Part shown: in pieces, positions 52,020 through 64,000 of the stretch
Numbering within the stretch: the first letter of the stretch is position 1
Layout: each line of letters opens with the position of its first letter
Origin: Bacilli bacterium
GTDB lineage: Bacteria; Bacillota_I; Bacilli_A; RF39; UBA660
Assembly: GCA_022795155.1 (NCBI GenBank)
Contig: JAAWGF010000003.1
Location: 13,775 to 77,774 of the forward strand
Direction of reading: 5' to 3'
DNA length: 64,000 bases
Program-made: the position numbers and the translations under genes
The notes under the pieces: model-generated
What the model was told of the DNA's origin: nothing
Seen by the model: only the letters and a program-made list of their open reading frames with translations
The model's database searches: none

Positions 52020-52335
52020 TGTCCTCGTCTCCTTTTCTCTTTTTTCTCTTAAATAGTTTTCTAATACCATTAGCTATAAAACTTACAACTTTATCATTGA
52101 TGCTTGACAAAGTATCGGTCAAACTATCAATTACATCAAAAGCACCATCTAATTTACTAACCTTAGTATTTACATTAGTGACAATTTCATCAACTTTCTT
52201 TAAAGTATTAATCATTCTAAACACTAAAATAATTAATACTACTAATAATATAATCGCTAATATAAATAATATGACAGGAAAAACATCATACATTAAATCC
52301 ATTTTAATCGTCACCTTTCTCATACATTGAATCAA
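52009..52335 (-). CDS. DUF948/YtxG-like small membrane protein
   Basis: 108 aa; one TM then a coiled coil; ytxG-ytxH-like adjacency. Confidence 0.5.
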   Translation of the reverse strand: MIQCMRKVTIKMDLMYDVFPVILFILAIILLVVLIILVFRMINTLKKVDEIVTNVNTKVSKLDGAFDVIDSLTDTLSSINDKVVSFIANGIRKLFKRKKRKGDEDNEE

Positions 52336-53362
52336 TTAAATTAAATAAATCGCTTTGGGTTAAATCATCATCATCTTTAGTTTCTTCAATTCTTGTATTA
52401 TTATTCATAATATAATCTTCAACTAAATGATCATCCTCATCATAAGAATTGATAATTAAATCATCTAAAGATGATGTATCCTCTTTTTCTTTTTCTCCGT
52501 CTATGTTATCTAAGGTACTATTAATAGATAATTCTAAATTATCTAAAGTATTATTTAAATCAAAATCATTATCAACTTCGTCATCTTGTTCATGCTTTGC
52601 TTTATATTCTTCAATTGGTGAATTTAAAAACTCATCAACACTACTATACTCATTGTCGTCAACCAAATCCGTTAAAAGATTGTTTTTACTCTCCTCTTTT
52701 TCTTCTTTAGCACTATCGGGTTCCATAAATATTGATGATTTTGTAAATAATGACGTTTCTAAATCATCTTCTAATGTACCGTAAGCTTTTTTTCTTACAT
52801 CATCAATTGTTAATGGTTTTGATGGATCACGATATTCAGAATGAGTAACCTTTTTTGAGGAAATATCCTCTTTATGATAATTTTTATCAAGTACACCATA
52901 AATAGGTGAAATAATTGGCGTTGGCTTAAAGATCTTTGGTTCCTCTTTTTTTTCGATTTTAGCGCCATATATTTCTTTTTTTTCGGGCATTTTCTTTGTT
53001 TCAACTTTTTTGGTCTTCTCTTCTATTTTTTCAAAATCTTTATCATCAAAATAAACTGGAAAAACAAATTTCTCTTCTCTTTTTAAAATCTTTTTTTCTT
53101 CAACAGGTGCGATATTTTTTTCTTCATGTTGGAGAATTGGCTCGTCTAACGTATATTTTTTAATAATATCATTGTCTTCTAAAGATGTAGTAGTTCGTGA
53201 TAAATTTATTCTTGTAGGTGTAACTTTAGGTTGATATTCACTACTTCTTTTTAGCGGTTCTTCCTTTTCAATGCGTTCACTTTTAATTGATTGTTTAGTT
53301 TCAACTACTTCTTCCTCAACCTCTTCTGTAAACATGTTTTTAAATTTATCTATTAATCCCAT
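52304..53362 (-). CDS. Highly acidic, low-complexity E/K/D-rich protein, unknown function
   Basis: 352 aa; N-terminus MGLIDKFKNMFTEEVEEE; long E/K repeats; acidic C-terminus. Confidence 0.35.
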   Translation of the reverse strand: MGLIDKFKNMFTEEVEEEVVETKQSIKSERIEKEEPLKRSSEYQPKVTPTRINLSRTTTSLEDNDIIKKYTLDEPILQHEEKNIAPVEEKKILKREEKFVFPVYFDDKDFEKIEEKTKKVETKKMPEKKEIYGAKIEKKEEPKIFKPTPIISPIYGVLDKNYHKEDISSKKVTHSEYRDPSKPLTIDDVRKKAYGTLEDDLETSLFTKSSIFMEPDSAKEEKEESKNNLLTDLVDDNEYSSVDEFLNSPIEEYKAKHEQDDEVDNDFDLNNTLDNLELSINSTLDNIDGEKEKEDTSSLDDLIINSYDEDDHLVEDYIMNNNTRIEETKDDDDLTQSDLFNLIDSMYEKGDD

Positions 53363-53384
53363 TTAAATCACCTTATTCTTTCAT

Positions 53385-53984
53385 TTATTCATTAATATCG
53401 TATTTTAAATTGTCTGTATTTTCAACTCGTGATGTAAAAATATCATATTTTTCTTCTTTATTAACAAAATACTCATCGTTAAGCATTAATTTAATGACAT
53501 TATTATTAAATTTAATTGTTGATAAAATATATGTTGAATTTAAAATAACATCATTTATATCATCTTCATATACCATGGCTTCTATTTTAGCATAATTATA
53601 CATAAATTCAATTAAATAGCGATCATTTATCTTATTAATTTCTAAATATCCTTCTTGCCCATTAATATCAATATAGCGAGAATAATAAGCATCTTCATTT
53701 TCTTTATAGGTAAAAGCAATTTTATTATAATAACTAATTACATCAATATAAAGATAGTAATAATAGCCATTAGAGTACAATTTGTCATTCAACTCAGTTG
53801 TATCAATGTAGCTCATTCCACGAGGCACGTAATATTTATAGCCTTTTCCAACACGGTTATAAAGTTTATTATTTTTTGATAGTACTACATCAATAATATT
53901 ATCAATACTATCAGTATCTATTCTAACAATTGTACAACCAGTAAATAAAATTAAACAAAGTACAATTAAAATTATCTTTTTCAT
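53385..53984 (-). CDS. Lipoprotein, unknown function
   Basis: Signal peptide with lipobox LFTGC; 199 aa; Y/N-rich. Confidence 0.6.
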   Translation of the reverse strand: MKKIILIVLCLILFTGCTIVRIDTDSIDNIIDVVLSKNNKLYNRVGKGYKYYVPRGMSYIDTTELNDKLYSNGYYYYLYIDVISYYNKIAFTYKENEDAYYSRYIDINGQEGYLEINKINDRYLIEFMYNYAKIEAMVYEDDINDVILNSTYILSTIKFNNNVIKLMLNDEYFVNKEEKYDIFTSRVENTDNLKYDINE

Positions 53985-54052
53985 ATTTCACCACTCTTAT
54001 ATAAGTATAACAAAATTACAAAATTAAATAAAGTTTTTTGAGATGAAAATAT

Positions 54053-54682
54053 TTATTTAGTTACCTCAATATAATAAATTCGCATTCCCTTAGAAACAAA
54101 TTTTGTTTCATATTCAGTTGGAATATTTAAGCTTATATCATCAGCGTATAAATCTAGGCTAAGACTTTCTATCTTATAGCCATAATCAGTAAATGTTTTT
54201 ATGGAGTATTCAAACAAATGGCGATTATCCGTTTTCATAATAATTTTTTTGCTATTTTCAAAAATAGAATCATACTTTTCTAAAAAAGGAAAACTAGTCA
54301 ATCGACGATTAGTATGTCTCTTTTTTGGCCAAGGATCAGAAAAATTTAAATATAAACAAGCAATTTCTTTATGAAAAATATTCGCGATTTCTAACGCATC
54401 AATATTAATTAATTTTAAATTAGGTAAATCTGTATTTTCTAACTTTTCGACCGCCCTAACCATAACACTATCAAATTTCTCAATACCAATAAAATTAATA
54501 TCAGGATACTCGCAAGCATTTTTAATAATAAAGTCTCCTTTACCCATTCCTATTTCAATATATATTGGATTGTCATTTTTAAAAATATTATTAAATCGGC
54601 CTTTATAAGTTGTGGGATTTTTTATTATATATTTTGATTTGTCTATTTTTATTTGAGCGTTTTTAACTTTTCTAAGTCGCAT
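54053..54682 (-). CDS. trmB: tRNA (guanine46-N7)-methyltransferase
   Basis: 209 aa; SAM-binding IEIGMGKGDF; NFSDPWPKKRH motif typical of TrmB. Confidence 0.9.
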   Translation of the reverse strand: MRLRKVKNAQIKIDKSKYIIKNPTTYKGRFNNIFKNDNPIYIEIGMGKGDFIIKNACEYPDINFIGIEKFDSVMVRAVEKLENTDLPNLKLINIDALEIANIFHKEIACLYLNFSDPWPKKRHTNRRLTSFPFLEKYDSIFENSKKIIMKTDNRHLFEYSIKTFTDYGYKIESLSLDLYADDISLNIPTEYETKFVSKGMRIYYIEVTK

Positions 54683-54766
54683 AAAATCACCATACTTTAA
54701 TTAATTATATCACATATTTATGATAATAGCATATAATTAATTAGAATAATTAAAGGAGAGTGTAAA

Positions 54767-55093
54767 GTGAAAAAAGATAGAAATTGTGGAATGAATCCAT
54801 ACCCTGTTTATCAACCATACCAACAAGTAGGTCCTATGATGAATCCTGGTATGATGGCTCCTAGTATGATGCCACCTGTTATGGCACCAGGAAATATCCA
54901 AATGCCACCACAATATTCAATAAGCCAAGATAGTGTTAGTTCTAATACTATTGAACAGCAAATGGCTCAAATGCAACGACAAATCAATAATTTAGATGCC
55001 CGTGTTTCTAAATTAGAGAGTTCTATAAATACGATTGGTAATTCTTCATTTAATTCCAATCAATATTCAAGTGGCAACTACCACATTGTTTAA
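54767..55093 (+). CDS. P/M/Q-rich small protein (spore-coat-like composition), GTG start
   Basis: 108 aa; RBS AAAGGAGAG then GTG; Pro/Met/Gln-rich N half (PYPVYQPYQQVGPMMNPGMMAPSMMPPVMAPG) and coiled C half. Own terminator follows. Confidence 0.4.
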   Translation: MKKDRNCGMNPYPVYQPYQQVGPMMNPGMMAPSMMPPVMAPGNIQMPPQYSISQDSVSSNTIEQQMAQMQRQINNLDARVSKLESSINTIGNSSFNSNQYSSGNYHIV

Positions 55094-55118
55094 AAAACGT
55101 CTAAGACGTTTTTATTTT
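55094..55118 (+). terminator. Rho-independent terminator
   Basis: AAAACGTC-TAA-GACGTTTT followed by TATTTT. Confidence 0.6.
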
Positions 55119-55168
55119 AATTATAGTGATATAAAATTTAGTACAAAAAAAACAACATAGTTGTTTTT

Positions 55169-55921
55169 TTACTTTATTATTTCATATTTAATTAGAATAT
55201 ATTTTTCTTCTTGTTTTTTAAAAGTATATTTATATTCAGTTAATTTTTCTTTTAGTTCGTTTTTATGTTCATTGTAATAAGCTTCTAACAATTTTTTATT
55301 TTCTTCTAAATTTTCAGTCAGCTCTATTGTAAAAAGAGCGTTATCTAAATTATAATCATTGTTTTTTGATAATAATGCATTTTCATAACTACCAAAAAAA
55401 CCATTTTTTAAATTACCGTCTTGCATATTATAGAATATTTTCGTTATAGTTAATTCATAAGTATCATCATTATCTTTAAAATCAACAATATCAATATAGT
55501 CCGATACAACAAAATTTTTATTATTATATTCGCTATTTAAGTTAAATTTATGATCCTCATATTTATAGATAATAGTATCTCCATCAGTTATATCAGTAAA
55601 TTCGATATCTATATCACTACCAAAAATATTTATTAAATAATTTTTTACATCTTCTTCAGTAGTTGATTCAATACTATTAAGAGCTAATTGTAATTTAAAA
55701 TTGTTAGGTAATTCATTTATATTATCAATTGATGAATTATTTCTATCTATATATTCTAATTTATTCTCTTTAATAAGGTCTAAAAAATATTCCTCAGACA
55801 TTTTTTCTTTTTTCGTTGAATTAGTAAATAGTTTAATTATATTAAAAATCAAAAAAGCGCTTAGTATAACTAATATAACAATTCTAAATATATCTATTTT
55901 ATTTAAATTTAGTTTTTTCAT
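55169..55921 (-). CDS. Hypothetical membrane-anchored protein
   Basis: 250 aa; N-terminal TM; the stop sits in a palindrome AAAACAAC-ATA-GTTGTTTT (55144..55170) that can serve as a bidirectional terminator. Confidence 0.4.
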   Translation of the reverse strand: MKKLNLNKIDIFRIVILVILSAFLIFNIIKLFTNSTKKEKMSEEYFLDLIKENKLEYIDRNNSSIDNINELPNNFKLQLALNSIESTTEEDVKNYLINIFGSDIDIEFTDITDGDTIIYKYEDHKFNLNSEYNNKNFVVSDYIDIVDFKDNDDTYELTITKIFYNMQDGNLKNGFFGSYENALLSKNNDYNLDNALFTIELTENLEENKKLLEAYYNEHKNELKEKLTEYKYTFKKQEEKYILIKYEIIK

Positions 55922-57300: not shown

Positions 57301-58902
57301 TTATCCTCCCTCATTAAATAAATCTGGCAAGTCATTTTCTAATAAGACGAATGTCTCCTCACCTTTTAATTTCTCGATTAACACAAATGCTTCTTTAACA
57401 TCATTTAATATATATATATGCTTTTTGTCATATTTTTTTAGTATTAATCCATCATAAATTGGTTTAGTTTGTTGTTCACCAACTAAAATTACATCATCAC
57501 AAACATCGGCAATATATTCACCAAATTTATTATTTAACTCATACTGACTACTTCCAAGTTCAATCATTCCAGGCGTCACAATGATCTTTTTACCTGGCAT
57601 TAAATTTAAAACTTCTAAAGCCATTTTTGAACCAGTTGGATTAGAATTAAAAGCATCATCAATTAAATACATATCTTTATATTTTTTTAATTCTAAACGA
57701 TGTTCGATTGGCATTAAAGATTTAACTGCTGCTTGCATTTTAGGAATTGGGATATTTAATTCATAGCCTAATGCTAAAGCATCTAAAATATTATAAATGT
57801 TATGGCGCCCCAATAATTTTGTTTCAAAATCATATAATTTATCATCATTTTTAAATTTAACTTTAAAAGTTGTTCCTGTATGTGACAACTTAAGATTTGA
57901 GGCCATAACATCAGCTTTATTTTCAATACCAATCCAAATAATTTTACAAGTATTTTTAATTTTATAATTAACTTGTTTACTATCATCACGATTTAAAATC
58001 GCTACTCCATCACTAGGTAAAGTTTCAATAAGTTCAAATTTACCTTTAACAATATTTTCTTCACTTTTAAATGTTTCCAAATGAGCTACTCCAATTGTTG
58101 TTATAATCCCATATTTAGGTTTAGCTAAATTACATAAAATTTTTATATCTTTAAGTTTACAAGCTCCCATTTCGGCAATAAAAACATTATCAAATTTATC
58201 AAGTCCATTATTAATAGATTTCATAAGTCCATATGGGGTATTAAAACTTTTAGGCGTTGGGTAAGAATTATATTCACTACTTAGAATTGTATTTAAAATA
58301 TTTTTACTACTAGTTTTTCCATAGCTACCTGTAATACCTACAATTTCTAAATTAGGCATATTTTTTAATTTTTTCTTAGCTTTATTTAAATAGTAAAGAT
58401 AAACAAACTTTTCAGCTGGTATATTTATAATATTGATTATATAGGTTATTATAAATGATAGATAGCCAAATAAAGCAATAATTAAATAATAGTATAATAT
58501 ATACTCATCATTATAATTTCTATAGATAAAATATATTAAAGTTAAAAACAGAATAAATAAAGTTACAAATAATCGTTTAACGCGACTAGTTATAACAAAT
58601 GGTTTTTTTTGTTGTTCTTTTTTTATTAATTTTAATTCTATATAAAAGCATAGCGAAAATAATAAAAAGGCTACATATATATAATAATCTTTTAATATTA
58701 AAATTATTAATAATAATGGAAAAAGAGATAAATCATAAGTAATTAAAGTTTTAAATGGATTTTTAAATACCCATTTTATATATCGGTTGCTTACATTATA
58801 GGAGTTTTGTTGCAACATATAAATGGCTTTACGATATTTTAGAATCATATACAAAATAAATGGTATTAACGAAATTAATAAATTATTCATACTACTCACC
58901 AA
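57301..58902 (-). CDS. murF: UDP-MurNAc-tripeptide--D-Ala-D-Ala ligase MurF with unusual N-terminal polytopic membrane extension
   Basis: 533 aa. Residues after about 165 are a normal MurF (P-loop GITGSYGKTSS, central and C-terminal Mur ligase domains). The first roughly 150 aa are 4 to 5 hydrophobic helices in place of the usual MurF domain 1. Confidence 0.8.
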   Translation of the reverse strand: MVSSMNNLLISLIPFILYMILKYRKAIYMLQQNSYNVSNRYIKWVFKNPFKTLITYDLSLFPLLLIILILKDYYIYVAFLLFSLCFYIELKLIKKEQQKKPFVITSRVKRLFVTLFILFLTLIYFIYRNYNDEYILYYYLIIALFGYLSFIITYIINIINIPAEKFVYLYYLNKAKKKLKNMPNLEIVGITGSYGKTSSKNILNTILSSEYNSYPTPKSFNTPYGLMKSINNGLDKFDNVFIAEMGACKLKDIKILCNLAKPKYGIITTIGVAHLETFKSEENIVKGKFELIETLPSDGVAILNRDDSKQVNYKIKNTCKIIWIGIENKADVMASNLKLSHTGTTFKVKFKNDDKLYDFETKLLGRHNIYNILDALALGYELNIPIPKMQAAVKSLMPIEHRLELKKYKDMYLIDDAFNSNPTGSKMALEVLNLMPGKKIIVTPGMIELGSSQYELNNKFGEYIADVCDDVILVGEQQTKPIYDGLILKKYDKKHIYILNDVKEAFVLIEKLKGEETFVLLENDLPDLFNEGG

Positions 58903-58966
58903 TATAATTATACAATAAATTTAAAAAAATTAATAATAAAAAAGAGATTTTTATTCTCTTTTCCAT

Positions 58967-61444
58967 TTATCTACGCTTTCCTAAATCATTATTTTCTTCA
59001 AAAGATATATTGCTATAATTTTCTGGATGACTTAATTTATCTTTTTCAATATAAGATTTACTAAAATAGCCTTTTGTTTCAGGAATATAATAATTATTCA
59101 TGTAATTATTAGCAATATTATCATAAAATCCATAATCATTAGAATCATATACAAAATCATATGTCTTATTATTATACATATTATATAAATCAAATAAAGT
59201 AATATTTAAGTTTCTTTTCCTATGAGGGATATCCTCTTCATATAGTATTGAATCTTCAAAACAATTCATAGCATTTTCTATGTCATCATAACCAAATAAA
59301 GATAATTTTTCTCTTATTAATTTATCACTGCCTGTAAAATAGTAATATTTTAATGATTCACTGCCAACTAACTCCATTAAAATTTTTGTTGCCTTTTCTT
59401 CCATTAACGAAAGTTCATCTTTTTTAGACAATTCTATTCCATAATATTCTTCTAATATAATATTAATACATGCGTTATATAAAATGTAATTACTGTAATT
59501 TTCTGATAACAGTTTTACAAATTGTTCTACTTTCTCTTTTTTATAAACATCAGCATATAGAAGGTTATTTTTAGAAGCATATTGTTTACAATTATTTTCA
59601 CTTATTACTATTTCACAGTTTTCTAAATCAATAGCGCTAATTCTATAAGGAAATTTATCATTTGAATCCGATCCTATTATACATCTATCATCATTAGTTA
59701 TTCGCAAATTTTTTAAACATTTTATAATATTATAATGATTATAATATAATTCAACATTACCATTTTCACTTATTCTATCATTTAAATACATCCTTGTATA
59801 ATAAATATAATCGTTGATTAATTCTTCATTAAAAAGGATATCTTTTTCCTCATTACTTAAATTTTGATTGTTATAAAATGCTTGTTTTAAAGTGAAAAAG
59901 TCCAAATCATTAAGTAAATCTTCTGTATCTACTCTAACTGAGATTTGATTATAAGCAGGGTGATAAGTATTTGTTGCTAACTTATAATTTAATGCATCGT
60001 ACAAATCATCTTCATTTTTTGGCTTATCACAATTATTAAAATAATATTTACTAAAAGTATAATCTAAAGCCTCTAAATACTTATTAATAGCTGAGTTGGC
60101 TCTCATTGAACAATTGTATTTATTGTAGTAAACGAATGAATAAATTGTTTTCATATTACTTATATTTTGCTGCCACTGTTCTTCAGTAATAGTTTTGCCT
60201 ATGGAACCTTCTGTTCTCTTATATATTTCTAGTAATTTGTTTACATCTTCTATAGGTAGATACTTTTCTAATTCTTCTTTAATTGGCTCAATACTACCTG
60301 TAAAGTTATACCTTATTACTGGTTCTTTACCAATGATTTCCATTAAAATAGCAGTATATTTAGGTTTGGTATTATCAATAAATGAATATTTATTCATTAA
60401 ACTAACTGTTTTTGATGACTCTCCAATCATTTCATAATCTCCAATATTTTTATTATATTCATATTCTGGAGATGTTACAACACTTTCTGTTTTATGAAAT
60501 TCTTTGCCCATAATGGTAGCACAACCTTCAAATAAAAAAGAATATTCGTTAGGTGGTTGAAAAAGATGCGAAAACTCATGTAACATAACTTCTTTATATT
60601 CTTCATAAAAATTTTCTCCATTAGACCTTTTAATTAAATCAAGATTGAGGCTTAATGTATAATCATTTGAATTCCATGTGCCTAATAGTTTTTCTCCCAT
60701 ATCTTTTTCTACAATCGTAAAATTTGGCAATATAATATTATATAGCTTAGCAGCATATTCTTTATTTTCATTTACATATTGACTTGCAAATTCAATAATA
60801 CCACTATTTAATAAAATTCCCTTATTACTATCATTTATATTTTTATTATTTTTAATAAGATCTGAAATTATCTCAGTTGTTAATGTTGGTGTATTATTCA
60901 TCAGCTCTGCTAAATAAATAGATTGCTCACTATCTATTTCTATAGAATCAGATATTGCTATCGATTCAATAGGTGGATTATTATCTATCAACTGATCAAG
61001 TTTCGAAATAAAATTACATTCAGCAAATATTAAAAGAGAAAGACTTGTTACTCTCAAAAGTCTAACGGTATTATCATCTCGATCTAATAAATTATCAGTA
61101 TATTTAATGTTCCTATTATCAGCAATAATGACATCTTCAAAATTATTTATAAATAAATTAAAATTTTCTTTCCCATTTAAAAAGTAATGTTTTAAATTAG
61201 TATCTAAATCTAAAATAACATCATAACTATGATTATCTTTTTCATAATCACCAATTTTTTTAGCATTATTTCCAATTTTTAATTTATTTAATTCTTTAAA
61301 TACATCTTCATTTAAAGGATAAAAATGATTATTTTCATATATATAACCATATATTTTTGGATGTTCAGTATTTATATTATCACTAAAAATATTATAAATT
61401 CTATTATTTGCTGTTAAGCGCATTAATTCCATATCATTCACCAT
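58967..61444 (-). CDS. Large (825 aa) hypothetical protein with HExxH zinc-metallopeptidase-like motif
   Basis: No signal peptide or TM; a single HEFSH motif (EVMLHEFSHLFQPP) roughly 300 aa from the N-terminus; N/Y/D-rich; no family recognised. Confidence 0.45.
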   Translation of the reverse strand: MVNDMELMRLTANNRIYNIFSDNINTEHPKIYGYIYENNHFYPLNEDVFKELNKLKIGNNAKKIGDYEKDNHSYDVILDLDTNLKHYFLNGKENFNLFINNFEDVIIADNRNIKYTDNLLDRDDNTVRLLRVTSLSLLIFAECNFISKLDQLIDNNPPIESIAISDSIEIDSEQSIYLAELMNNTPTLTTEIISDLIKNNKNINDSNKGILLNSGIIEFASQYVNENKEYAAKLYNIILPNFTIVEKDMGEKLLGTWNSNDYTLSLNLDLIKRSNGENFYEEYKEVMLHEFSHLFQPPNEYSFLFEGCATIMGKEFHKTESVVTSPEYEYNKNIGDYEMIGESSKTVSLMNKYSFIDNTKPKYTAILMEIIGKEPVIRYNFTGSIEPIKEELEKYLPIEDVNKLLEIYKRTEGSIGKTITEEQWQQNISNMKTIYSFVYYNKYNCSMRANSAINKYLEALDYTFSKYYFNNCDKPKNEDDLYDALNYKLATNTYHPAYNQISVRVDTEDLLNDLDFFTLKQAFYNNQNLSNEEKDILFNEELINDYIYYTRMYLNDRISENGNVELYYNHYNIIKCLKNLRITNDDRCIIGSDSNDKFPYRISAIDLENCEIVISENNCKQYASKNNLLYADVYKKEKVEQFVKLLSENYSNYILYNACINIILEEYYGIELSKKDELSLMEEKATKILMELVGSESLKYYYFTGSDKLIREKLSLFGYDDIENAMNCFEDSILYEEDIPHRKRNLNITLFDLYNMYNNKTYDFVYDSNDYGFYDNIANNYMNNYYIPETKGYFSKSYIEKDKLSHPENYSNISFEENNDLGKRR

Positions 61445-61515
61445 TTTAATTTTACTACATTAAAATTTTTTTAGCAAATTATAAAAGAAAAATGATAACA
61501 TTGAATATTATCATT

Positions 61516-63336
61516 TTACGCTTCATTAAAATATCTATCATACCAAACTAAGAAAATATAGATTGTCCATACCTTTCGACTATTATCATATTTACTATTC
61601 TTATGGTCATCTAATAGTTTAACAATTTCGTTAGTATTAAAAAATTCACTAGCGTCTAAAAATCTTGTCTTAATTTTATTATAAATATCATCTTCTTTAA
61701 TCCAATTTCTAATTGGTACTGGAAAACCTAATTTCTTTTTATTAGAAACTTTATCATCTAATACTTCATTTGCAACTTTCCTAAAGCATTTTTTAGTTGT
61801 ATTTTTATCTACTTTATATTTAGTTGGTAAATGTCTTGCATAATCAATTACAATTCTGTCTAGATATGGTACTCTAACCTCTAAAGAATTAGCCATACTC
61901 ATTTTATCTGCTTTAAGCAAAATATCGCCAATTAACCAAAAATTAAAGTCTATATATTGCATTTTTATAACATCATCTTTTCCTTTAACTTTTTCATAAT
62001 ATGGTTTAGTTAAATGTTGATAACCATTTTTAATTGGTTTATAAGCTAATATTTTTTTTACTTCTTTATTATTGAATATAAAAGCATTTCCTACATATCT
62101 ATCTTCCAATTTTTGTCCACGCCTTATTAAAAAATTAATACCTCTTTTATGTTTAAATATAGAAGCACAACTTCCAATTAATTTTCTAATTGGATAAGGA
62201 ATTTTATAATACCAACTCCATGTATATGGCTCTGAATAAATATTATAACCACCAAAAATTTCATCGGCTCCTTCACCAGATAATGAAACCTTAACATTTT
62301 GACTAGCAATATTAGCAACAAAATATAAAGCAATACATGATGGATCAGCCAATGGTTCATCCATATAATACATAATATCAGAAATACTATCAAAGTACTC
62401 TTCCTTAGTTATAACTTTACTAATATTTTTTGTGTTAATCTTTCCTGATAAATCTTTAGCGTAATCTATTTCACTATAATTTTTATTTTCAAAACCTACT
62501 GTGAATGTTTTGTCCACATTGCTTAAAGTCGCAATTAAGGAAGAATCAACTCCGCTTGATAAAAATGAACCAACCTCCACATCACTTACTTTATGGGCTT
62601 TAATCGAATCATCTAAATGTTCTCTAATTCCCTTTTCCCATTCTTCGAGTGTTTTGCTATCATCAGCTTCTAATTCTAATTCATAATACTTGCTTATTTC
62701 CAATTTCTGATCTTTATATTTTAAATAATGCCCTGGTCTTAATTTATAAACATTTTTGAAAAACGTTTCTTCACCCACACTATATTGAAAAGTTAAATAA
62801 CTTTCTAGCATTTCTTTATTTAATTCTTTTTTAAAATTAGGATGCGCTAAAAAGCTTTTTATTTCTGATGAAAACAAAAATTCATCAGTTGTCAAATAGT
62901 AATAAAAGGGTTTAATTCCATAAAAATCTCGAGCTGCAAACACTTCTTTTAGATTAGTATCATAAATTACAAAGGCAAACATGCCACGTAGTTTCAATAA
63001 TATTTCTTCATTGTATTCTTCATATCCATGTAGAATAACTTCTGTATCAGCATTAGTTTTAAATGTATGACCTTTGGCAATCAGTTCCTCTTTAATTTCT
63101 TGATAGTTATAAATTTCACCATTAAAAACAATAACCTTGGTATTATCCTCATTATAAATGGGTTGTGAGCCAGTATCTAAATCAATAATACTAAGACGAC
63201 GAAATCCTAAAGCGACCTCAGAATCACAAAAATAGCCATCAGAATCTGGTCCACGATGTTTAATTAAGTCAGCCATATCTTTAACAATTTTTTTCTTATT
63301 TTTTTCTTTGTCGACAAAACCTACAAAACCACACAT
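61516..63336 (-). CDS. asnB: Asparagine synthetase B (glutamine-hydrolysing)
   Basis: 606 aa; N-terminal MCGF (Cys2 nucleophile), SGGVDSS PP-loop. Confidence 0.92.
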   Translation of the reverse strand: MCGFVGFVDKEKNKKKIVKDMADLIKHRGPDSDGYFCDSEVALGFRRLSIIDLDTGSQPIYNEDNTKVIVFNGEIYNYQEIKEELIAKGHTFKTNADTEVILHGYEEYNEEILLKLRGMFAFVIYDTNLKEVFAARDFYGIKPFYYYLTTDEFLFSSEIKSFLAHPNFKKELNKEMLESYLTFQYSVGEETFFKNVYKLRPGHYLKYKDQKLEISKYYELELEADDSKTLEEWEKGIREHLDDSIKAHKVSDVEVGSFLSSGVDSSLIATLSNVDKTFTVGFENKNYSEIDYAKDLSGKINTKNISKVITKEEYFDSISDIMYYMDEPLADPSCIALYFVANIASQNVKVSLSGEGADEIFGGYNIYSEPYTWSWYYKIPYPIRKLIGSCASIFKHKRGINFLIRRGQKLEDRYVGNAFIFNNKEVKKILAYKPIKNGYQHLTKPYYEKVKGKDDVIKMQYIDFNFWLIGDILLKADKMSMANSLEVRVPYLDRIVIDYARHLPTKYKVDKNTTKKCFRKVANEVLDDKVSNKKKLGFPVPIRNWIKEDDIYNKIKTRFLDASEFFNTNEIVKLLDDHKNSKYDNSRKVWTIYIFLVWYDRYFNEA

Positions 63337-63519: not shown

Positions 63520-63723
63520 ATGCAAATAGATATAAGAGAAAGTATTAAAAAAAATTTCAAGGATGTAAGTACTAATGATATAAAATTGTCTATTGAAGAG
63601 GCTATATCAGAAAATGACGAAATAACATTACCAGGATTAGGGGTTTTTTTTGAAACTTTATGGAAAAGTTCAACAGATAAACAAAAAGAAGAAATCTTAA
63701 ATAAAATTAAAAAAAATATATAA
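63520..63723 (+). CDS. sspI: Small acid-soluble spore protein I
   Basis: 67 aa; ITLPGLGVFFETLW matches SspI (MLPGLGVLFEVIW). Confidence 0.75.
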   Translation: MQIDIRESIKKNFKDVSTNDIKLSIEEAISENDEITLPGLGVFFETLWKSSTDKQKEEILNKIKKNI

Positions 63724-63752: not shown

Positions 63753-64000
63753 TTATTTTATCATAAAGCTAACACCCTTCCTCTCATTTTTTACGATAAT
63801 TTCATAACCCAGAAGCGCTACTGTCTTTTTAACAATTGATAATCCAAAACCAAATTGTCCTTTAATGCCTTTAGTATATGGAGTGAATATATCATCTAAG
63901 ACATTTTCATTTATATTTGGTCCATCATTATAAAATATAATTTTTCCATTTTTTATAGTAATTTTAATTAATTTTTCTGCATAGCGCATGAAATTATTTA
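63753..64000 (-). CDS. Sensor histidine kinase, C-terminal HATPase_c fragment (partial; gene continues beyond window end)
   Basis: YNDGPNI...GFGLSIVKKTVALLGYEIIVKNERKGVSFMIK are the G1/G2-box ends of a histidine kinase. Confidence 0.6.
   Translation of the reverse strand, partial: NNFMRYAEKLIKITIKNGKIIFYNDGPNINENVLDDIFTPYTKGIKGQFGFGLSIVKKTVALLGYEIIVKNERKGVSFMIK

What the first reader, a model, noticed from the sequence alone, without database searches (positions are those of the whole stretch)
58967..61444. 825-aa cytoplasmic-looking HExxH protein of unknown function embedded between murF and asnB
No signal peptide or TM. A single HEFSH (…EVMLHEFSHLFQPPNEYSFLFEG…) is the only recognisable motif. 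The rest is N/Y/D/K-rich with no similarity to any family I can name. Its position inside an otherwise core cell-wall/biosynthesis gene string, cotranscribed in the same direction, suggests a conserved but undescribed metalloprotease-like factor.
Basis: seen in the sequence. Interest (0 to 1): 0.55.

Follow-up and report, generated by a model that had tools for sequence, protein, structure and literature searches.

The report
Unannotated membrane-tethered zinc peptidase with dead twin domain
The gene encodes a member of a previously undescribed family of zinc-protease-like proteins from uncultured low-GC gut Bacilli. It probably sits in the membrane with its catalytic domain outside the cell. 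In this lineage it carries a second, catalytically dead copy of that domain. It is a modest find and its substrate is unknown.

Summary
The ORF (58967..61444, minus strand, 825 aa, one HEFSH) is real. Pfam, NCBIfam, PHROGs, PADLOC and PDB sequences give no significant match.

An exhaustive search finds about 100 representative clusters (50% identity). A word-indexed search adds 169 more members. None has a name or a Pfam domain, and all come from uncultured gut Bacilli.

H289, E290, H293, E306 and E315 are invariant. AlphaFold places HExxH at the end of helix 268-293, with E306 on the next helix (302-319). Three strands and a backing helix precede them, which is the gluzincin layout. Fold matches to solved structures are only local and not significant (selecase, an M1 peptidase, SprT).

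- The family has a conserved hydrophobic segment at about residues 110-145 with a strong positive-inside bias, so the HExxH domain is probably extracytoplasmic. In this particular protein the segment is weak.
- The "featureless" C-terminal half is a degenerate tandem duplicate of the peptidase domain (hhalign 98.9%, E 1e-17) with HEFSH replaced by EQFVK.
- The murF/asnB neighbourhood is lineage-specific, and the gene has its own promoter-like and terminator-like signals.

Verdict: a new family within a known superfamily, with an unusual architecture. Moderate interest.

The parts
58967..61444 (-). Whole ORF, 825 aa including the stop codon. The likely real start is M5, at 61432.
61130..61432 (-). 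N-terminal domain, residues 5-105. It is mostly beta and predicted to be cytoplasmic. It is the most conserved part of the protein.
   Evidence: Mean identity among long forms is 85%, against 56% for the peptidase domain. With the 99-sequence alignment, pLDDT is about 74-96 across residues 11-100. It has no Pfam hit and no significant fold match.
61004..61072 (-). Hydrophobic segment, residues about 125-147. It is a putative signal-anchor or TM helix and is weak in this protein.
   Evidence: It is the top KD 19-mer, at residues 129-147, scoring 1.45. The same position scores KD 1.6-2.7 in most relatives. K/R content is 4.3 before the segment and 1.75 after it. The crude Hessa sum is +5.4 here, against 0.2-1.7 in P0084, P0010, P0011 and P0008.
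60005..60919 (-). Active zincin-like domain, residues 176-480.
   Evidence: pLDDT is mostly above 90. It is shared by all family members.
60566..60580 (-). HEFSH motif, H289-E290-x-x-H293. It lies at the C-terminal end of helix 268-293.
   Evidence: Invariant in alignments A2, A3 and A4.
60488..60541 (-). Glutamate helix, residues 302-319. It carries E306 (the proposed third zinc ligand) and E315. Position 310 is E in most of the family but T here.
   Evidence: E306 and E315 are invariant in A4, and E310 is at least 90% conserved. An hhalign comparison aligns E306 with the NEG Glu of a Peptidase_MA_2-like protein, but only at motif level.
60395..60493 (-). Subclade-specific insertion of about 30 aa, residues 318-350, just after the glutamate helix.
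   Evidence: It is present only in the window protein, P0002-4, P0007 and partly P0012. It is modelled as a hairpin in model 1 and has low confidence in model 2.
59039..59929 (-). Degenerate duplicate of the peptidase domain (pseudo-peptidase), residues 506-802.
   Evidence: hhalign of residues 177-477 against 506-802 gives probability 98.9%, E 9.8e-18, over 248 columns. A pairwise BLASTP of 362-395 against 684-717 gives 47% identity, E 2e-4. Mean identity among long forms is 62%.
59513..59527 (-). EQFVK, residues 640-644. This is the position homologous to HEFSH in the duplicate. N657 replaces E306, and E666 is retained in place of E315.
   Evidence: From the hhalign alignment, with residue numbering.
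61449..61477 (-). Promoter-like site: TTGCTA, 17 nt, TAAAAT.
   Evidence: Both hexamers are invariant in five orthologous loci.
61492..61514 (-). Inverted repeat ATGATAA-N9-TTATCAT followed by a T-run. It is probably the terminator of the upstream gene.
   Evidence: It is invariant across loci whose upstream gene differs.
58938..58962 (-). AT-rich hairpin AAAAGAGA-N7-TCTCTTTT plus a T-run, directly after the stop codon.
   Evidence: Read from the sequence. The consensus scan, which requires 3 G-C pairs, did not call it.

Best explanation
The gene encodes a member of an uncharacterised family of zincin (gluzincin-type) metallopeptidases.

Proposed architecture, from N to C terminus:
- A small, highly conserved beta-rich domain in the cytoplasm (residues 5-105).
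- A basic linker and a single hydrophobic anchor (about residues 125-147).
- An extracytoplasmic catalytic domain (residues 176-480).
- In this lineage only, a second copy of that domain that has lost its metal site (residues 506-802).

Proposed chemistry (inferred, not shown):
- Zn2+ is held by H289, H293 and E306.
- E290 activates the water.
- Position 310 is E in most of the family and T here. It plays the second-shell role of thermolysin D170.

Proposed action (inferred):
- The enzyme cleaves a peptide or protein substrate at the outer face of the membrane or in the wall zone.
- The dead twin domain supplies extra substrate binding or regulation. This parallels the inactive half of M16 peptidases.
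- The conserved cytoplasmic domain binds an intracellular partner.

The substrate is unknown. A cell-envelope substrate is the leading guess, but it rests only on weak neighbourhood hints.
For: Shown:
- H289, E290, H293, E306, E315, E369 and G372 are invariant across 99 sequences that are 20-41% identical to the query. H289, E290, H293 and E315 are also invariant in an independent 65-sequence set, in which E306 is at least 90% conserved.
- The AF2 models have pLDDT above 90 over most of residues 176-470. The element order is helix 228-241, strands 243-246, 255-258 and 263-266, helix 268-293 ending in HExxH, a loop, then helix 302-319 carrying E306. This is the backing helix, sheet, active-site helix and glutamate helix order of gluzincins (my knowledge of the fold).
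- Recurrent sub-threshold Pfam matches all fall in HExxH zincin families. They are SprT-like in 10 of 65 members, M76 in 10, M78 in 4, eCIS_core in 3, DUF6782 in 2 and M1 in 1.
- The highest-probability local Foldseek hits are selecase (0.84 and 0.47), an M1 peptidase (0.51), and phage SprT proteins (0.54 and 0.66).
- A hydrophobic segment sits at a conserved position. 111 of 120 members have more K/R before it than after it.
- The C-terminal half is a duplicate, with HEFSH replaced by EQFVK and E306 by N. It is still conserved at 62% mean identity.
- The family has 103 representative clusters plus 169 further members. None is named, and none has a precomputed Pfam domain among the members listed by the word-indexed searches.

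Weak hints towards an envelope substrate:
- Neighbours include asnB, murE and a MurF-like gene here.
- VanY and a polysaccharide deacetylase flank P0160.
- A Mur ligase lies 3 kb from the L007 pair.
- AsnB homologues amidate mDAP in peptidoglycan in B. subtilis and Listeria (PMC5485061, PMC8554201).
Against:
- The H293-E306 spacing of 12 residues is shorter than in thermolysin or M1 (18-19, my knowledge).
- In this protein and its closest relatives the anchor segment is poor. It scores KD 1.45, contains R and E, and has a crude Hessa sum of +5.4. Its preceding linker is acidic rather than basic. This copy might therefore not insert into the membrane.
- E310 is T here.
- Gene neighbourhoods are not conserved beyond close relatives, so there is no real evidence about the substrate.
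Confidence: 0.55

Rival explanations
1. The protein is a soluble cytoplasmic metalloprotease-like factor that acts with the cell-wall precursor enzymes it sits between.
For: - There is no signal peptide.
- This protein's hydrophobic segment is marginal and contains charged residues.
- The asnB-X-murF/murE order is kept in five related loci.
Against: - Relatives have clear TM-grade segments at the same position (KD up to 2.7), with a positive-inside bias in 111 of 120 members.
- The neighbourhood is not kept outside the long-form lineage.
- In L027 the MurF-like gene is absent, and in L001 and L025 other genes are inserted next to X.
- The gene carries its own promoter-like and terminator-like signals.
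Confidence: 0.2
2. The protein is a transmembrane signalling or scaffolding protein. Its ectodomain mainly binds a ligand, with catalysis secondary or self-directed. The conserved cytoplasmic N-domain passes the signal to an intracellular partner.
For: - The cytoplasmic domain is by far the most conserved part, at 85% against 56% for the peptidase domain.
- The ectodomain evolves fast and has a subclade-specific insertion beside the active site.
- A pseudo-enzyme copy is retained.
- A response-regulator/kinase pair lies a few kb away in L005, L012, L018, L026 and L027, and the kinase in L025.
Against: - The catalytic Glu and all proposed ligands are invariant. That argues for retained catalysis.
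- The N-domain has no recognisable regulatory fold.
- The two-component genes are neither adjacent nor consistently present.
Confidence: 0.13
3. The protein is a zinc hydrolase acting on peptidoglycan stem peptides rather than on proteins. It would be a wall-remodelling enzyme, possibly linked to sporulation.
For: - Its neighbours here are asnB, mDAP-type murE and a MurF-like gene.
- VanY and a polysaccharide deacetylase flank P0160.
- spoIID, an M23 peptidase and spoIIID lie next to the short form. cotE and yunB lie next to other members.
- The hosts carry sporulation genes.
Against: - No wall-binding domain (SH3b, LysM, SPOR, PG_binding) was detected.
- Known peptidoglycan peptidases use other metal motifs (M15, M23; my knowledge).
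- The neighbourhood links are few and inconsistent.
Confidence: 0.12

Closest known systems
Gluzincins of clan MA(E): thermolysin M4, M1 aminopeptidases, Pfam Peptidase_MA_2
   Same: - HExxH lies on one helix, and a Glu on the next helix sits in an E-x-x-x-E/D pattern (E306...E310 in the family consensus).
- A small beta-sheet and a backing helix precede them.
- A motif-level hhalign comparison aligns the family with HEFVH...NEGIA of a Peptidase_MA_2-like protein.
   Different: - There is no significant sequence or fold match.
- The His-to-Glu spacing is 12 residues rather than 18-19.
- The helical C-terminal subdomain, with its LMEIIG and FTG motifs, is unique to this family.
Minigluzincins and minimal zincins: selecase, proabylysin, SprT/Wss1-like and M76
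   Same: - They provide the best local fold hits (selecase probability 0.84 and 0.47; phage SprT 0.54-0.66) and the most frequent sub-threshold Pfam hits.
- They share a compact catalytic core.
   Different: - E-values are around 1 and the TM-score is 0.4 over about 80-90 residues only.
- Those proteins are roughly 100-aa soluble or cytoplasmic domains.
- This domain is about 300 aa, follows a membrane anchor, and is predicted to be extracytoplasmic.
M16 peptidases (pitrilysin, insulin-degrading enzyme, mitochondrial processing peptidase)
   Same: The architectural principle is shared. Tandem homologous domains are present, only one keeps the zinc site, and the inactive copy helps to hold substrate (my knowledge). 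Here the two copies are residues 176-480 (active) and 506-802 (inactive).
   Different: The fold and motif are unrelated (HxxEH inverzincin). The M16 enzymes are soluble. This is an analogy only.
BlaR1/MecR1 (M56) and HtpX/Ste24 (M48) membrane zinc proteases
   Same: They are membrane-associated HExxH...E enzymes of Firmicutes with minigluzincin-like cores (my knowledge).
   Different: Those are multi-pass proteins with the catalytic site on the cytoplasmic or membrane face. This protein has a single anchor and an external domain. No M56 or M48 Pfam hit appeared even at E of 1 or below.

Membership tests
Zincin / gluzincin metallopeptidase superfamily (clan MA) | HExxH motif conserved across homologues | tested here: met
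   H289, E290 and H293 are invariant in the 40-, 65- and 99-sequence alignments. The motif is present in 243 of 250 collected sequences. Six of the other 7 are partial sequences (84-374 aa); the seventh is full-length P0123 with a disrupted motif.
Zincin / gluzincin metallopeptidase superfamily (clan MA) | Third zinc ligand is a Glu on the helix that follows the active-site helix | tested here: inconclusive
   E306 is invariant and lies on helix 302-319, directly after helix 268-293. Side-chain geometry could not be checked because no coordinates are returned. E315 is an alternative candidate.
Zincin / gluzincin metallopeptidase superfamily (clan MA) | Catalytic-domain fold matches solved zincins | tested here: inconclusive
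Zincin / gluzincin metallopeptidase superfamily (clan MA) | Zinc binding and peptide-bond hydrolysis | not testable with these tools
   Needs purified protein.
Any curated peptidase family (Pfam, NCBIfam) | Score above the curated threshold | tested here: not met
   The window protein has no peptidase hit. Across 65 members the best hit is SprT-like at E 6.3e-4, not shown to reach the curated cutoff: the only scored SprT-like hit on record, 19 bits on P0041, is below the 25.6-bit cutoff.
Minigluzincins (selecase / proabylysin type) | Significant structural superposition on the roughly 100-aa minimal scaffold | tested here: inconclusive
   4qhf gives probability 0.84, E 1.0, target TM-score 0.41 over 92 columns. 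4qhi_C gives probability 0.47.
M56 BlaR1/MecR1 and M48 HtpX | Pfam Peptidase_M56 or M48 match, and multi-pass topology | tested here: not met
   There is no such match at E of 1 or below. Every scanned member except P0097 has only one hydrophobic segment.
Bitopic N-in/C-out membrane proteins (signal-anchor) | One TM-grade hydrophobic segment with positive-inside charge bias | tested here: inconclusive
   For the family the feature is met: KD is at least 1.6 in 86 of 120 members, and K/R is biased in 111 of 120. For this protein it is marginal: KD 1.45, crude Hessa sum +5.4, acidic linker. No dedicated TM predictor was available.

The most novel reading that the evidence does not exclude
The family is a new kind of transmembrane protease switch found only in sporulating, genome-reduced gut Bacilli. 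An external zincin domain, paired in this lineage with a dead twin that gates or presents substrate, senses or processes an envelope or host-derived peptide. The ultra-conserved cytoplasmic beta-domain relays the event inward. The conserved 90-nt upstream element gives the gene dedicated regulation.
Probability: 0.12. Interest if true: 0.65.

Novelty: new variant of a known kind. Interest (0 to 1): 0.4.

Why it matters
- The work defines a protein family with no Pfam or NCBIfam match in any member scanned and no source name beyond 'hypothetical protein'. It has about 100 clusters at 50% identity and is confined to uncultured, low-GC, spore-forming gut Bacilli.
- It gives that family a testable biochemical prediction: named zinc ligands, a named catalytic base, and a predicted topology.
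- The active-plus-dead tandem arrangement is a clean natural example of pseudoenzyme birth by internal duplication.
- The practical value is better annotation of gut metagenomes and a candidate surface enzyme in poorly understood commensals.
- It does not overturn any current view.

Tried and rejected
- Pfam, NCBIfam, PHROGs and PADLOC scans of the window protein and of relatives gave nothing above threshold. A weak RsmE/PUA hit at residues 549-644 (E 1.8e-4, 21 bits against a cutoff of 234) was dismissed as noise.
- PDB sequence searches gave nothing. The single-sequence search had no hits. The profile search returned only a Borrelia BBA03 helical stretch (E 0.0035) and a motif-level match to 4l7a (E 5).
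- Foldseek against the PDB with two models, and against BFVD, gave no hit at E of 1e-3 or better.
- The profile search with alignment A3 in the word-indexed database recovered only close relatives. The related-loci scan with A3 failed because it had no sufficiently conserved stretch.
- I looked for a conserved partner gene. Clustering neighbours across 16 loci found none beyond close relatives. The apparent 93-aa upstream ORFs are spurious or unrelated.
- A mobile-element or defence role was rejected. There are no phage or plasmid homologues and no PADLOC hit. One distant member, P0084, does sit beside TnpV and a type IIG restriction-modification gene.
- Rfam found nothing in 58700-61700.
- I considered reading the upstream palindrome as a Fur or Zur box. 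The half-sites resemble TGATAAT/ATTATCA, but the spacing is 7 nt rather than 1. I treat it as a terminator hairpin.
Full report
**Observation.** The window has about 25% G+C throughout. An 825-codon ORF runs from 61444 to 58967 on the minus strand. It contains one HE..H match, HEFSH at residues 289-293. Its composition is N/L/I/E/Y/K-rich. Upstream lies a glutamine-hydrolysing asparagine synthase (TIGR01536, 508 bits). Downstream lie a MurF-like ligase and an mDAP-type MurE (NF001126, 508 bits). The real start is probably M5 (ATG at 61432). GGTGA sits 5 nt upstream of it, most homologues begin there, and a 97%-cluster member is deposited at 821 aa.

**No known family claims it.** Pfam, NCBIfam and PDB sequence searches return nothing meaningful. 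PHROGs and PADLOC are also empty. There are no phage or plasmid homologues.

**A real but narrow family.**
- The word-indexed search finds 39 clusters. Twelve are long forms of 640-838 aa. Twenty-seven are short forms of 459-484 aa that cover only the first 55% of the query.
- An exhaustive phmmer search over 1.84 billion representatives finds 103 at E of 1e-3 or better. Most are 450-620 aa.
- A search seeded with a central distant member (P0084) adds 169 more.
- None listed by the word-indexed searches has a precomputed Pfam domain, and scans of 72 relatives gave nothing above threshold. The only names are 'hypothetical protein [Bacilli bacterium]'.
- Genome records carrying the family are uncultured gut MAGs. 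They are labelled Bacilli, Erysipelotrichaceae, 'Tenericutes' or Candidatus Ventrenecus.
- Flanking genes include SSPI, SpoIID, SpoIIID, CotE and YunB, so the hosts are spore-formers.

**Catalytic motif.**
- Across 99 sequences that are only 20-41% identical to the query, the invariant residues are H289, E290, H293, E306, E315, E369 and G372. Q296 and E310 are at least 90% conserved.
- An independent 65-sequence set gives the same core.
- The family signature is HE[FY][IV]H-L-x-Q-x(6-9)-Y-x-[IL]-x-E-[AG]-x-A-E-I-x-S-x-E-Y-[YF].
- The window protein reads HEFSHLFQPPNEYSFLFEGCATIMGKEF, so position 310 is T here.

**Structure.**
- Two AlphaFold2 models were made. The full-length model used 40 sequences (pLDDT 73.6). 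The model of residues 1-480 used 99 sequences (pLDDT 78.4, pTM 0.68).
- Both give pLDDT above 90 for most of residues 176-470.
- The element order is helix 228-241, three strands (243-246, 255-258, 263-266), helix 268-293 ending in HExxH, a Pro-containing loop, then helix 302-319 carrying E306 and E315.
- This is the backing helix, sheet, active-site helix and glutamate helix order of gluzincins (my knowledge).
- E306 with E310 four residues later mimics the NExxSD pattern of thermolysin. A motif-level hhalign comparison places E306 on the NEG Glu of a Peptidase_MA_2-like protein (probability only 22%).
- Foldseek finds no significant relative in the PDB or BFVD. The highest-probability local hits are selecase, an M1 peptidase and phage SprT proteins.
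- Sub-threshold Pfam hits across 65 members fall consistently in zincin families: SprT-like 10, M76 10, M78 4, eCIS_core 3, DUF6782 2, M1 1.
- I conclude that this is a divergent zincin domain that defines its own family. Metal-site geometry could not be verified because coordinates are not exposed.

**Topology.**
In this protein the most hydrophobic 19-mer is residues 129-147 (LLRVTSLSLLIFAECNFIS, KD 1.45).
- The sequence there is not conserved, but every relative has its hydrophobic maximum at the same place. Typical KD values are 1.6-2.7.
- Only P0097 has a second such segment.
- The 15 residues before the segment average 4.3 K/R, against 1.75 after it. 111 of 120 members follow this bias.
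- This predicts a signal-anchor with the N-domain inside and the peptidase outside.
- The caveat is that the window protein and its nearest relatives are at the weak end. Their crude position-independent Hessa sum is +5.4 kcal/mol, against 0.2-1.7 for P0084, P0010, P0011 and P0008. The window protein's linker has lost the KKxK stretch seen in P0002, P0004 and P0008.
- Membrane insertion of this particular copy is therefore likely but not secure.

**The C-terminal half is a dead duplicate.**
- BLASTP of residues 170-480 against 481-825 finds KYTAILMEIIGKEPVIRYNFTGSIEPIKEELEKY aligned to KATKILMELVGSESLKYYYFTGSDKLIREKLSLF (47% identity, E 2e-4).
- Profile-profile alignment of the two halves across the family gives probability 98.9%, E 9.8e-18, over 248 columns. 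It aligns residues 177-477 with 506-802.
- In that alignment HEFSH corresponds to EQFVK (residues 640-644) and E306 to N657. E315 corresponds to E666, which is retained, and LMEIIG to LMELVG.
- The duplicate is not decaying. It is 62% identical among long forms, more than the active domain at 56%.
- Duplication recurs at gene level. L007 has two tandem paralogues, L013 has two adjacent ORFs, and L017 encodes a 949-aa form.

**N-terminal domain.** Residues 5-105 are 85% identical among long forms whose peptidase domains drop to 38%. The domain is confidently modelled as mostly beta. It has no family or fold match. The strongest constraint on the protein therefore lies on the predicted cytoplasmic side.

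**Genomic context.**
- In the long-form lineage the order is response regulator, kinase, SSPI, asnB, X, MurF-like, murE. This order is kept with variation.
  - L001 has a 182-aa gene and a DUF6020 gene inserted before X.
  - L025 has a 568-aa gene inserted before X.
  - L027 lacks the MurF-like gene.
- Short forms lie between rpiB/DUF1146/spoIID/M23/spoIIID/mreB and rpmE, in the divergent orientation.
- Other members sit next to cotE and rpsP, yunB, a DHH phosphoesterase, tyrS, uvrC, rmuC, fur, VanY with a polysaccharide deacetylase, or a TnpV/type IIG restriction-modification island.
- Clustering neighbours across 16 loci finds no conserved partner.
- The 71-nt gap after asnB holds a 13-bp hairpin plus T-run and a TTGCTA-17-TAAAAT site. 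An AT-rich hairpin plus T-run follows the stop codon. The MurF-like gene has its own TGTATAAT.
- The 90 nt upstream of X are 82-94% identical among five loci with different upstream genes.
- Cotranscription with the mur genes is therefore not supported, and the neighbourhood is weak evidence for function.

**Mechanism.**
- Shown: an invariant HExxH...E...E core, a zincin-like helix pair and sheet, a conserved hydrophobic segment with positive-inside bias, and a conserved dead duplicate.
- Inferred: zinc bound by H289, H293 and E306; E290 as general base; the peptidase domain located outside the membrane; the pseudo-domain assisting substrate binding or regulation, as in M16 enzymes; the N-domain contacting a cytoplasmic partner.
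- The substrate is unknown. An envelope substrate is favoured only by scattered neighbours (asnB, murE, MurF-like, VanY, deacetylase) and by the role of AsnB homologues in mDAP amidation (PMC5485061, PMC8554201).
- Confidence is 0.55.
- The rivals are a soluble cytoplasmic enzyme (0.2), a signalling or scaffold role (0.13) and a peptidoglycan peptidase (0.12).

**Novelty and score.** This is a new family and architecture inside a well-known superfamily. It is not a new kind of system. It would interest people who annotate gut metagenomes and those who study pseudoenzymes, but it would not startle a protease specialist. Interest is 0.4.

Noticed in passing
window 57301..58902 (-): The 'murF' is atypical. 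Mur_ligase_M starts at residue 190. It matches TIGR01143 only from model position 66 (226.9 bits, below the 288.6 cutoff). Its first 175 or so residues are strongly hydrophobic, apparently several TM helices, instead of the usual N-terminal domain. Orthologues of 529-540 aa exist in L001, L025 and L026, but the gene is absent in L027. The real start is probably ATG at 58890, after GGTGAG.
   Followed up: partly
window 61445..61535 (-), with L001, L025, L026, L027: The roughly 90 nt upstream of the gene comprise a hairpin (AAAATGATAATAT/ATGTTATCATTTT), TTGCTA-17-TAAAAT and GGTGA. They are 82-94% identical among loci whose proteins are 49-75% identical and whose upstream genes differ. The palindrome occurs once in the window. 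There is no Rfam match.
   Followed up: partly
L007 7980-11237; L013 7872-10037; L017 63-2909: The family tends to duplicate. L007 has two tandem paralogues, L013 has two adjacent family ORFs, and L017 has a 949-aa form. This echoes the internal duplication in the window protein.
   Followed up: no
L019 / L020 (context of P0084): One distant member lies in what looks like a mobile island. The island holds TnpV, a 1250-aa type IIG restriction-modification enzyme, an HTH_36 protein, an Amidase_3 fragment and a 2678-aa ORF.
   Followed up: no
L001 6206-7917; L025 3203-4909: The slot between asnB and the gene is variable. L001 has a 182-aa gene plus a 346-aa DUF6020-like gene there, and L025 has a 568-aa gene. 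The window has none.
   Followed up: no
window 52304..55921: Three syntenic ORFs have no Pfam or NCBIfam match but are conserved in L001 and L005. They are a 250-aa ORF with an N-terminal hydrophobic stretch, a 199-aa lipoprotein-like ORF, and a 352-aa very acidic ORF.
   Followed up: no
window 63520..63723 (+) and 63753..63989 (-): A 67-aa ORF sits where the orthologous loci carry an SSPI-family small acid-soluble spore protein gene. The 3' end of a histidine kinase gene lies upstream of asnB. The host is therefore a roughly 25% G+C spore-former.
   Followed up: partly
P0123 (576 aa): This family member has the motif disrupted to HEGTIGH, while EACAE and EVIG are retained. It may be a naturally inactive full-length paralogue.
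   Followed up: no
L005 (CAYOYB010000009.1): The contig is deposited as 'uncultured Muribaculaceae bacterium'. It nevertheless carries SSPI, the family gene and the same synteny as the Bacilli MAGs, so the bin label looks wrong.
   Followed up: no
window residues 318-350 (60395..60493): A roughly 30-aa insertion sits right after the glutamate helix. It is present only in the window's subclade. It was modelled as a beta-hairpin with the shallow alignment and at low confidence with the deep one. It may be a specificity element.
   Followed up: no
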